Shown here in pieces: positions 9,001-12,000 of a stretch of DNA of 64,000 bases (positions are counted from its first letter, which is position 1; every line of letters starts with the position of its first letter). The stretch lies in NCBI RefSeq assembly GCF_041886205.1, contig NZ_CP169029.1. One strand, given 5' to 3'. This DNA is from Escherichia coli. GTDB taxonomy: Bacteria; Pseudomonadota; Gammaproteobacteria; Enterobacterales; Enterobacteriaceae. A program made the position numbers.

Positions 9001-12000
9001 CTTTACACCGGGCTGGTATTGTTGGCGAGCCTCGCCACCTGTACTTTCGCCTACCCGTGGCTTGAAGGCTATAACGACAACAAGGACGAGTTCTACCTGT
9101 TGGTGTTAATTGCCGCGCTGGGCGGGATCCTGCTGGCGAATGCCAACCATCTGGCGTCTCTGTTCCTCGGTATCGAACTGATCTCTTTGCCGCTGTTTGG
9201 CCTGGTCGGTTACGCTTTCTGCCAGAAACGTTCGCTGGAAGCCAGTATCAAATACACCATCCTTTCTGCCGCAGCGTCTTCTTTCCTGCTGTTTGGTATG
9301 GCGCTGGTGTATGCGCAGTCTGGCGACCTGTCGTTTGTCGCGTTGGGTAAAAACCTTGGCGACGGTATGCTCAACGAGCCGCTGTTGCTGGCAGGTTTCG
9401 GCCTGATGATTGTTGGCCTCGGCTTCAAACTCTCTCTGGTGCCGTTCCACCTGTGGACGCCAGACGTATACCAGGGCGCGCCTGCGCCGGTTTCCACTTT
9501 CCTGGCGACGGCGAGCAAAATCGCTATCTTCGGTGTGGTGATGCGTCTGTTCCTCTACGCACCGGTGGGTGACAGCGAAGCGATTCGCGTGGTGCTGGCG
9601 ATTATCGCCTTTGCCTCTATCATCTTCGGTAACCTGATGGCGCTGAGCCAGACCAATATCAAACGTCTGCTCGGTTACTCATCTATCTCTCACCTCGGTT
9701 ATCTGCTGGTGGCGCTGATTGCGCTGCAAACTGGCGAGATGTCGATGGAAGCGGTAGGGGTTTACCTTGCCGGTTATCTGTTCAGCAGCCTAGGCGCGTT
9801 CGGCGTGGTCAGCCTGATGTCCAGCCCGTATCGTGGCCCGGATGCTGATTCCCTGTTCTCTTACCGCGGTCTGTTCTGGCATCGTCCGATCCTCGCGGCA
9901 GTGATGACGGTGATGATGCTGTCTCTGGCCGGTATCCCGATGACGCTGGGCTTTATCGGTAAGTTCTACGTGCTGGCGGTCGGTGTCCAGGCACACTTGT
10001 GGTGGCTGGTGGGTGCTGTGGTTGTCGGTTCGGCAATCGGCCTCTACTACTACCTGCGCGTGGCGGTGAGCCTGTACCTGCACGCACCGGAACAACCGGG
10101 TCGCGATGCACCGTCAAACTGGCAGTACAGCGCGGGCGGTATCGTGGTGCTGATTTCTGCACTGTTGGTACTGGTGCTGGGTGTATGGCCACAACCGCTG
10201 ATTAGCATTGTGCGGTTAGCAATGCCGCTGATGTAAGCTATCAGTTTGTAAGTCAGAAAGCCGCCGACATGTTCGGCGGTTTTTTTTGGTGCCCTGACAC
10301 CATCACCCAACAATAACCGTCAGCGCATGATTCCCCTGTCGCAGCATACGTCGATACGCGCTAATCAGCTTTTCCATATCAAGCATGATCGAGGCAAAGA
10401 GTTGCCCCTCTAACTCTTCTGAAAAGGTCACTCCCGGATAAATCTCCATTTCATTGAGTCGCTTAATGGAAAACTGTTTACGCAGCTCACTTCGATCCAG
10501 TGATTCCAGTCGGTCGATTGTCGCGGCTAACTCCTGATTCCAGGTCAATCCCAGGAAGCCATCTATGCCATCTTCGAGGCTGTGTTCACCAAGCACGGCA
10601 CGACTCAGCGGATCATTCTTCGCGGGATCAAAAGCAGAGGTGCCTGTCAGCCCAAAGTGTAAAAAATCCCAGCGTTTGTCAATATCCAGTCGGCGTAATC
10701 CTGAAAGCGTGTCATGAATATTGTCCATTAAGGGTTTTTCAGTAGACTCAAGCAGTTGGTTAATCTTTTCTGAGTCAATTTCTGCAAAATAGCCAATCAT
10801 TCCCATTTATTTTTCCTCCATTGAATTTCATGTTTCGCATCTTAAAACAGACGAGGGAAAATAAAATGTGCATGTCGCTTTTTCTGGATCCGCCTCGAGA
10901 AATTTTTATTATTTACTGTTGTATAACAAGTTTATAACACCATCCACCACCTGAGCCATTTTCTGATAATTCAATCTGTCTGCGGTATCACCGGGCAAGT
11001 GGTATTGTTTATTAAGATAAAAAGCGGTGTCAGTAATCATTACGGCGGGAATATCGTGTTGCCAATAATTCAGGTGGTCAGAGAAATCAATACATGGAAT
11101 AAACCCTGGGGCATTCATAGAATAAACAGATAAATCCCGGGATGACAACAATGCCGCTTTTACCTGACGAACGGCGTTGATATCCTGCATTCTGCCGACC
11201 ACGGCAATAAAGTCTCCCCGATCGGGATAAAGCCAGGACATTGCCGGGTAAGGGTAATCCTGGCTTCCAGGCGCAGAGTCGTAATAGCCAATCGGGGACG
11301 CCCTGCGCGGTAACTCTGGCACCGCTACTGACAAAGACCTCTTTTATATACTCTACGGACCTATTCAGATTATCAATATTGCCGGCATTACGTGGATGCA
11401 CAGTTTGTGTAAGATAACGAACTGTTTTTTCTAATTGCTCAGGACTTACGTGTCGGGGCATTGGCGATAATGCAGTGACCCAGGGTTGGTAAAAAATAAT
11501 CAGAGGGAGTGAAAATAGAAATAATATAACAAAAGGAAAATTTTTTCATTTGTAAATTATCAATAAAAGGCGTTATTTTATCATTATTTATAATGAGTTA
11601 TGAGTGTTTATTTTATTACGGTTGTTAGATCTATACAAAAAGTATCTTTTACAGTGGGTTCGCTATTTTTAAAAAGCAATTTCTATGAGAAATAAAAATA
11701 TAATTATGTTATTTATTGGCAGATTGAATTGACAAGTGGGGCAGAAATCTGAGGGTAAGAAAAGTCAGCAACTACAATCCACTACATCAACAGACCAGCA
11801 ATCGCGTGCCGCGATACGCTGGAAATACCCGTAGATTGAACTGGCAGATGGTGTGACTGGCATCAGTCAGTGATGACTTTTTAGCAAACTATGTCCGACC
11901 AGTCAGCATATTTGCTGACTGGTCGAATTAATTAACAATGATGTTAACTTACTCTTTTGCCTGATGCTCTATTTTTGGGTTGTGAGTGTTTTATTTCTAA

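What the first reader, a model, noticed from the sequence alone, without database searches (positions are those of the whole stretch)
10909..11549. yfbL is a pseudogene: internal deletion plus a one-base homopolymer frameshift at the second codon
Two overlapping minus-strand ORFs in different frames carry the N-terminal (11087..11461) and C-terminal (10909..11334) parts of an M28-peptidase-like protein. They meet near 11290-11310 with an estimated 110-140 codons missing between them. Further upstream, the signal-peptide-like reading KNFPFVILFLFSLPLIIFYQPWVTA is in frame with the downstream N-terminal segment but out of frame with the only upstream ATG (11547-11549). The run ATG-AAAAAA-TTTTCC has six A where five would restore the frame, which looks like a slippage-type frameshift.
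Basis: partly seen in the sequence, partly recalled or inferred. Interest (0 to 1): 0.4.

Follow-up and report, generated by a model that had tools for sequence, protein, structure and literature searches.

The report
Dead yfbL peptidase gene remnant
This is the decayed remnant of the E. coli yfbL (M28 zinc-peptidase) gene, killed by an old 326-base deletion and an out-of-frame start; about 37% of complete E. coli genomes share it and RefSeq already annotates it as a pseudogene, so it is ordinary.

Summary
The window is E. coli chromosome with the gene order nuoN / yfbM / yfbL remnant / elaD. Compared with intact 323-codon yfbL alleles, the window lacks exactly 326 bp: codons 88-195 plus 2 nt of codon 196. 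The junction lies between window bases 11294 and 11293. The deletion shifts the frame and removes the counterparts of six of the seven active-site residues of the M28 aminopeptidase fold. The ATG at 11549-11547 is also out of frame with the signal-peptide-like segment and the rest of the gene.

The allele is not an assembly error and not rare. The same junction is spanned in one piece in 2026 of 5426 complete E. coli genomes, including O157:H7 and E. coli B. NCBI's PGAP pipeline annotates 10909-11527 as a "frameshifted" pseudogene in a genome that is in register with the window.

One detail is unproven: that the A6 run arose by gaining one A from A5. Sister pseudogene alleles carry A6, A7 or A8 with T4 or T1, and all are out of frame. 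Intact alleles carry A7 followed by different sequence, a net 5 nt longer. No A5 or A8 version of the window's haplotype was found.

Verdict: an already known, ordinary decaying pseudogene of low interest.

The parts
10909..11549 (-). The whole yfbL pseudogene remnant, from the former start codon to the original stop codon.
   Evidence: Aligns end to end with intact yfbL alleles except for the 326-bp gap and the 5' indels. PGAP annotates 10909-11527 as a 'frameshifted' pseudogene in strain wlxctx60, whose locus is in register with the window.
11547..11549 (-). Ancestral ATG start codon. It is now out of frame and opens only the 36-aa ORF 11439..11549.
   Evidence: It is the same ATG as the annotated start of the intact alleles.
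11537..11546 (-). Homopolymer tract A6 (11546-11541) plus T4 (11540-11537). Its length varies among pseudogene alleles and puts the ATG out of frame with the rest.
   Evidence: A6T4 in the window, XJ5.2, wlxctx60 and AR_0085. A7T4 in O157:H7 Z1768 and 2016C-3878. A7T1 in B-RalR and MY1-8. A8T1 in Z1322HEC0002, UTAK-3, LD91-1 and AST81. The distance from the ATG to TACCAACCC is 58, 59, 55 or 56 nt, against 63 nt in the 4 intact alleles.
11471..11545 (-). Remnant of the signal-peptide-like N-terminus (KNFPFVILFLFSLPLIIFYQPWVTA). It has no start codon of its own, and TGA lies immediately upstream at 11548-11546.
   Evidence: Translation. Intact alleles read MKKITPLCFISLLLSLPFIIFYQPWVNA or MKKIIFAFIILFVFLLPMIIFYQPWVNA.
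11294..11470 (-). N-terminal homologous segment, equivalent to intact YfbL residues about 29-87 and ending ...ARVTAQGVP.
   Evidence: It differs from the nearest intact allele (MLI109) by 8 nonsynonymous and 0 synonymous changes over codons 22-87.
11293..11294 (-). Deletion junction. 326 bp are missing between C11294 and G11293. G11293 is the surviving third base of the codon for Met196.
   Evidence: coordinates. The junction is the same in all 11 deletion alleles sampled, apart from point substitutions in the first two retained bases (G>A in O157:H7 Z1768, A>G in AR_0085). It is spanned in one piece in 2026 of 5426 genomes.
10909..11292 (-). C-terminal homologous segment: YfbL residues 197-323 plus the stop codon, in a different frame from the N-terminal segment.
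   Evidence: Translates as IGYYDSAPGSQ...LLYNSK*. It gives a weak Pfam Peptidase_M28 hit to profile positions 143-191 (21.3 bits, exactly at the cut-off). It retains only the counterpart of ligand His256 of 1AMP, which is H294.
11015..11015 (-). Substitution CGT>CTT (Arg>Leu) in the remnant, seen only in the window among the sequences compared.
   Evidence: All 13 other alleles aligned have CGT, including the otherwise identical XJ5.2 and wlxctx60.

Best explanation
This is a non-functional, decaying pseudogene of yfbL, a secreted or periplasmic M28-family zinc peptidase-like protein of unknown substrate. A single old 326-bp deletion removed codons 88-195 and two bases of codon 196. It shifted the frame and took out nearly the whole metal-binding and catalytic core. 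The start codon is also out of frame with the signal-peptide segment, because of length changes in an A-run/T-run just after the ATG. No full-length or active product can be made. The allele has spread through a large part of the E. coli population and keeps collecting lineage-specific indels and substitutions.

Shown here: the deletion, the frames, the lost residues, the population frequency and the further decay. Inferred: a single origin, neutrality, and slippage as the source of the tract-length changes.
For: Synteny and identity:
- The window is E. coli chromosome, about 100% identical over 25 kb to several strains.
- The gene order is nuoN / yfbM / remnant / elaD, and an intact 323-aa yfbL sits in the same place in strains such as MLI109.

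Deletion:
- Alignments show one 326-bp gap.
- Apart from point substitutions at the first two retained bases in two strains, the junction is identical in all 11 deletion alleles sampled, including O157:H7 and E. coli B.
- A junction-spanning query is covered in one piece in 2026 of 5426 complete genomes.
- This agrees with 5359 genomes having the locus and 3311 having the deleted segment.

Loss of function:
- Intact YfbL matches Pfam Peptidase_M28 at 93 bits. The window's N-terminal ORF matches nothing, and the C-terminal ORF only reaches the cut-off over the last 49 profile positions.
- Alignment to Vibrio aminopeptidase 1AMP pairs H113, D115, D133, E165, E166 and E195 with H97, D99, D117, E151, E152 and D179. 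All six lie in the deleted stretch. Only H294 (paired with H256) remains.

Start out of frame:
- Shown: Decay:
- Sister alleles carry further 1-bp and 7-bp indels at six other sites.
- The window's N-terminal part differs from MLI109 by 8 nonsynonymous and 0 synonymous changes.
- Intact alleles show dN/dS of 0.19-0.43.

Not an artefact:
- Nine independent complete assemblies have the same 5' tract.
- PGAP marks the locus 'frameshifted' in every deletion-type genome examined.
Against: Nothing contradicts it. The limits are these:
- Expression was not measured. Promoter-like matches upstream are consensus hits only.
- The synonymous/nonsynonymous counts are small.
- The genome collection is biased towards clinical and outbreak lineages, so 37% is a share of sequenced genomes, not of the species.
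- The order of the two lesions (5' frameshift and 326-bp deletion) is unknown.
Confidence: 0.95

Rival explanations
1. Sequencing or assembly artefact: the A6 run or the 326-bp gap is an error in this assembly, and the gene is really intact.
For: Homopolymer runs are a classic site of sequencing errors. That is general knowledge, and nothing in the data here points that way.
Against: The identical 95-nt 5' stretch with A6 occurs in nine independent complete genomes, and with one SNP in further strains. The junction occurs in 2026 genomes. A 326-bp gap with one conserved junction is not an error mode.
Confidence: 0.01
2. The remnant encodes a shortened functional protein, for example the 141-aa C-terminal ORF or the 124-aa N-terminal ORF, retained for a new non-catalytic role.
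For: Both ORFs are open in the window. The allele is widespread. The C-terminal part is still about 95% identical to the intact alleles.
Against: Sister lineages break both parts with further frameshifts: -1 at CCCGGCAATG, -1 at GCCGTGG, -7 at CAGGTGGTGGATGG, and +1 A in O157:H7. There is no signal peptide in frame with a start codon. Six of the seven active-site counterparts are gone. The N-terminal part shows 8 nonsynonymous and 0 synonymous changes. Neither ORF matches any NCBIfam model.
Confidence: 0.03
3. The A-run after the ATG is a contingency (phase-variation) or recoding site that switches yfbL expression on and off by slippage.
For: The tract length is A6, A7 or A8 among alleles, which suggests slippage.
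Against: All four intact alleles have the same in-frame A7. Variation is seen only in alleles already destroyed by the 326-bp deletion, so switching would have no output. None of the 12 deletion alleles (11 sampled plus the window) is in frame through to the conserved YQPW segment. To my knowledge, A6-A8 is short for efficient transcriptional slippage in E. coli.
Confidence: 0.02

Closest known systems
E. coli K-12 yfbL (b2271), annotated 'M28 family metallopeptidase' with no assigned function
   Same: It is the orthologous locus next to yfbM. The retained segments are about 90-96% identical in DNA to intact alleles. The start codon, stop codon and conserved YQPW...PRH N-terminal motif are shared.
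   Different: The window lacks 326 bp (codons 88-196) and has an out-of-frame start. The neighbourhood also differs: yfbK and yfbN/O/P, which flank the K-12-type locus, are absent here.
RefSeq/PGAP pseudogene annotation 'zinc-binding metallopeptidase family protein / hypothetical protein, frameshifted' in deletion-type E. coli genomes (e.g. AC6IW3_RS14015 in wlxctx60, KFQ11_RS07350 in XJ5.2, ILQ48_RS08260 in O157:H7 Z1768, PQS36_RS11400 in E. coli B-RalR)
   Same: It is the same allele class with the same junction. In wlxctx60 the annotation (10909-11527) is in register with the window.
   Different: The window has one extra substitution at 11015, compared with wlxctx60 and XJ5.2. O157:H7 and B alleles carry additional indels and different A/T tract lengths.
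Bacterial leucyl aminopeptidase of Vibrio (Aeromonas) proteolyticus, PDB 1AMP, the reference M28 structure
   Same: Intact YfbL aligns to it over the metal-binding core with all seven active-site positions matched: H, D, D, E, E, an acidic residue (E for D179), and H.
   Different: It is only a distant relative (E-value 3e-10), and YfbL's substrate is unknown. In the window six of those seven positions are deleted.

Membership tests
Peptidase family M28 (Pfam PF04389) | Profile match over the whole catalytic domain. | tested here: not met
   Intact allele: 93 bits over residues 95-317. Window N-terminal ORF: no hit. Window C-terminal ORF: 21.3 bits, equal to the cut-off, and only over profile positions 143-191 of 193. 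The window holds a fragment of an M28 gene, not an M28 domain.
Peptidase family M28 (Pfam PF04389) | Co-catalytic zinc site: His, Asp, Glu, Asp/Glu and His ligands plus the catalytic Glu and the His-orienting Asp (1AMP H97, D117, E152, D179, H256, E151, D99; residue roles from published AAP structures, my knowledge). | tested here: not met
   The alignment to 1AMP places H113, D115, D133, E165, E166 and E195 inside deleted codons 88-195. Only H294 is retained.
Pseudogene of yfbL | Same genomic position as an intact orthologue. | tested here: met
   The order elaD - yfbL - yfbM - nuoN is seen with intact yfbL in MLI109, MFDS1022581 and JNEC-KY177, and with the remnant in the window.
Pseudogene of yfbL | Reading frame disrupted relative to intact orthologues. 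| tested here: met
   There is a 326-bp deletion (not a multiple of 3). The distance from the ATG to the conserved YQPW codons is 58 nt, against 63 nt in the intact alleles.
Pseudogene of yfbL | Relaxed selection or continued decay. | tested here: met
   Sister alleles carry extra lineage-specific indels at six sites. The ratio of nonsynonymous to synonymous changes is raised in the remnant: 8:0 in the N-terminal part versus MLI109, and overall pN/pS of 0.28-1.0 against 0.12-0.33 among intact alleles over the same codons. The counts are small.
Pseudogene of yfbL | No functional product (no transcript, translation or activity). | not testable with these tools
   This needs RNA-seq, Ribo-seq or proteomics. 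The promoter-like matches are only consensus hits.
Slipped-strand (homopolymer) frameshift | The alleles differ only by the repeat-unit number in the tract, and an in-frame length exists in close relatives. | tested here: inconclusive
   A-run lengths of 6, 7 and 8 occur among otherwise similar alleles, which fits slippage. No in-frame A5T4 or A8T4 relative of the window's haplotype was found. Intact alleles differ from the window by more than tract length.

The most novel reading that the evidence does not exclude
The dead-yfbL allele may not be simply neutral. It may be kept at high frequency (about 37% of complete E. coli genomes) because losing YfbL protects against N4-like phages. A 2025 preprint (10.1101/2025.09.29.679331) reports that K-12 Keio yfbL and yfbO deletion mutants resist phage N4 and that complementation restores sensitivity. 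The window's lineage has the dead yfbL and also lacks yfbO. Nothing here tests this. The continued decay of the remnant is equally expected under plain neutral loss.
Probability: 0.08. Interest if true: 0.45.

Novelty: already known. Interest (0 to 1): 0.08.

Why it matters
It matters little. The result confirms a correct raw-sequence call of a pseudogene that public annotation already flags. The allele is common in E. coli, including the well-studied O157:H7 and B lineages.

There are two modest points of value. First, yfbL is a dispensable, polymorphic gene, intact in about 61% of complete genomes and dead in about 37%. Second, natural loss alleles could serve as material to test the recently reported link between yfbL and phage N4 susceptibility.

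Tried and rejected
1. I looked for an in-frame ancestor of the 5' tract. Synthetic A8T4 and A5T4 versions of the window's haplotype had no perfect match in 5426 genomes, and the best hits were the A6 alleles themselves. The direction of the tract change therefore stays open.

2. I tested whether the deletion was a 327-bp in-frame loss between the two ATTG repeats, followed by insertion of a G. A junction without the G has no full-length perfect match, and the best hit still carries the G. No longer direct repeats sit at the breakpoints. A plain 326-bp deletion without useful microhomology is the simpler reading.

3. An Rfam scan of 10200-12100 for a hidden RNA gene found only chance-level hits far below the gathering scores.

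4. The promoter/terminator scan gave only consensus-level matches in AT-rich DNA and was not informative.

5. A literature search for 'yfbL' found 12 papers (11 listed). From the titles and abstracts listed, none is about this pseudogene allele. I opened only the N4 phage preprint.

6. My first coordinates for the deleted segment (L002 3504-3829) were 4 nt off. The correct coordinates are 3508-3833. The count was made with the offset query, which still lies 322 of 326 nt inside the deletion.

Full report
**What is in the sequence.** On the minus strand, an ATG at 11549-11547 is followed by A6 (11546-11541) and T4 (11540-11537). It opens only a 36-codon ORF, 11439..11549. One base out of register, a TGA at 11548-11546 is followed by an open reading that translates as KNFPFVILFLFSLPLIIFYQPWVTALSPMPRHVSPEQ...ARVTAQGVP. 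That frame has no ATG, GTG or TTG before 11461, which is why the mechanical ORF list starts the 124-aa ORF there (11087..11461). A second ORF in another frame (10909..11334, 141 aa, TTG start) carries IGYYDSAPGSQ...LLYNSK from 11292 to the stop at 10909.

**Where the window comes from.** The first 25 kb are about 100% identical to several complete E. coli chromosomes: wlxctx60, LHM10-1, CP52E, XJ5.2 and 6EVA. The gene order is nuoG-N, yfbM, the remnant, elaD, rbn, elaA/B and menFDHBCE. In strain wlxctx60, whose locus is in register with the window, PGAP annotates 10909-11527 as a pseudogene: "zinc-binding metallopeptidase family protein, frameshifted". The same flag appears in XJ5.2, O157:H7 Z1768, E. 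coli B-RalR and every other deletion-type genome I opened.

**The internal lesion.** Strains such as MLI109, MFDS1022581 and JNEC-KY177 have an intact yfbL of 323-324 codons in the same place between elaD and yfbM. K-12-like strains have it between yfbK and yfbM. Alignment shows a single gap of exactly 326 bp in the window. In MLI109 coordinates this is L002 3508-3833, which covers codons 88-195 plus the first two bases of codon 196 (sequence, codon numbering). In the window the junction lies between C11294 and G11293, and G11293 is the leftover third base of the Met196 codon. Because 326 is not a multiple of three, the deletion alone separates the two halves into different frames.

No direct repeat longer than the 4-nt ATTG lies near the breakpoints, and the two ATTG copies are offset by one base. 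A hypothetical in-frame 327-bp version of the junction does not exist in the collection.

**What was lost.** Intact YfbL matches Pfam Peptidase_M28 at 93 bits over residues 95-317. It also aligns to the reference M28 structure, Vibrio proteolyticus aminopeptidase 1AMP. Counting along that alignment gives these pairs (YfbL with 1AMP):
- H113 with H97
- D115 with D99
- D133 with D117
- E165 and E166 with E151 and E152
- E195 with D179
- H294 with H256

From published work on that enzyme (my knowledge), these are the five zinc ligands, the catalytic glutamate and the histidine-orienting aspartate. Six of the seven fall in deleted codons 88-195, and only H294 survives. The window's N-terminal ORF matches no Pfam or NCBIfam model. 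The C-terminal ORF just reaches the Pfam cut-off over the last 49 profile positions. No peptidase can be made from this locus.

**The 5' end.** In all four intact alleles the distance from the ATG to the conserved TAC-CAA-CCC-TGG (YQPW) codons is 63 nt, and the ATG is followed by A7 and then TAACACC, TGACACC, TGACATC or TAATC. In the window the distance is 58 nt, so the ATG is out of frame. The eleven other deletion-type alleles I sampled fall into four classes:

| Tract | Strains | ATG to YQPW distance |
|---|---|---|
| A6T4 | XJ5.2, wlxctx60, AR_0085 | 58 nt |
| A7T4 | O157:H7 Z1768, 2016C-3878 | 59 nt |
| A7T1 | B-RalR, MY1-8 | 55 nt |
| A8T1 | Z1322HEC0002, UTAK-3, LD91-1, AST81 | 56 nt |

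None of these distances is a multiple of three. The A8T1 class is in frame through the tract itself but is thrown out again by a T6>T5 change a few codons later.

The tract length clearly varies among alleles, which fits homopolymer slippage in a gene no longer under selection. But I found no A5T4 or A8T4 version of the window's haplotype in 5426 genomes. Whether A6 arose by gaining one A or by losing two cannot be decided. Compared with intact alleles, the 5' region differs by more than a single base.

**Not an artefact, not rare, single origin.** The identical 95-nt 5' stretch with A6 occurs in nine independent complete assemblies. A 92-nt query across the junction is covered in one piece in 2026 of 5426 complete genomes. 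This agrees with 5359 genomes having the locus and 3311 having the deleted segment. All sampled deletion alleles share the same junction, apart from point substitutions in the first two retained bases in O157:H7 Z1768 and AR_0085. That pattern indicates one ancient event that has since spread; the single origin and the spread by descent and recombination are inference.

**Evidence of decay.** Beyond the shared deletion, sister alleles carry -1 at CCCGGCAATG, -1 at GCCGTGG, -7 at CAGGTGGTGGATGG, +1 A in O157:H7, and T6>T5 near the start. The window's allele is among the less decayed. It has no further indels, but over codons 22-87 it differs from the nearest intact allele by 8 nonsynonymous and 0 synonymous changes. 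It also carries a Gly>Cys change shared with XJ5.2 and wlxctx60, and an Arg>Leu change at 11015 seen only in the window. Intact alleles compared with each other give dN/dS of 0.19-0.43, so the gene is constrained where it is intact. The counts are small, but they point the same way as the indels.

**Rivals.** An assembly error is excluded by the many independent assemblies. A functional truncated protein is unlikely for four reasons: both remnant ORFs are broken in sister lineages, no start codon is in frame with the signal peptide, the catalytic core is gone, and substitutions look unconstrained. A phase-variable A-tract is unlikely because intact alleles uniformly have in-frame A7, and tract variation appears only in alleles already destroyed by the deletion. 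An Rfam scan found no RNA gene hiding in the region.

**Comparison with what is known, and novelty.** This is the yfbL locus of E. coli (K-12 b2271, an M28-family protein without assigned function). The pseudogene allele is already annotated in RefSeq, so the finding is already known and ordinary.

The only thread with some interest is a 2025 preprint reporting that K-12 yfbL and yfbO deletion mutants resist phage N4, with complementation restoring sensitivity (10.1101/2025.09.29.679331). The window's lineage has a dead yfbL and lacks yfbN/O/P altogether. Natural loss could in principle be favoured by phage pressure. Nothing here tests that, and plain neutral loss explains the data equally well. 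I give it about 8%.

**Verdict.** Novelty: already known. Interest: 0.08.

Noticed in passing
window 10237-10302 and 11550-11943: The locus is a reduced version of the K-12-type arrangement. yfbN, yfbO and yfbP are absent between nuoN and yfbM, where only a 66-bp spacer remains. yfbK is absent between yfbL and elaD. Other strains have an IS200/IS605 or ISEcB1 element between yfbM and nuoN. This is a structurally variable spot of the E. coli chromosome.
   Followed up: partly
window 11944-13164 (-): elaD (a deubiquitinase-like cysteine protease, 406 aa) is intact here. It is annotated as frameshifted in MRE162 (K-12-like), MFDS1022581 and 2016C-3878, and reduced to a fragment in JNEC-KY177. The neighbouring gene is therefore also polymorphic for inactivation, in different strains from yfbL.
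   Followed up: no
window 46015-47085 (-), by coordinate transfer from L016 16916-17986: In the near-identical strain wlxctx60, PGAP annotates a second 'hypothetical protein, frameshifted' pseudogene between a LysR-family regulator gene and glpQ. The window has a 368-aa TTG-start ORF at 46015..47121 there. I did not check whether the window shares the frameshift.
   Followed up: no
window 11015: A single-base difference (CGT>CTT on the minus strand) sets the window apart from XJ5.2 and wlxctx60, the only two near-identical strains whose remnant sequence was aligned. It is the only difference seen inside the remnant.
   Followed up: yes
window 11462-11546 compared with L002, L004, L006, L013: The signal-peptide region of yfbL is unusually divergent even among intact alleles (MKKITPLCFISLLLSLPF, MKKIIFAFIILFVFLLPM, MKKMTPLYFISLLLSLTF, MKKMTSLCFIPLLLSLTF). 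The mature N-terminus just after it is nearly invariant. The window's remnant resembles the K-12-type version most.
   Followed up: partly
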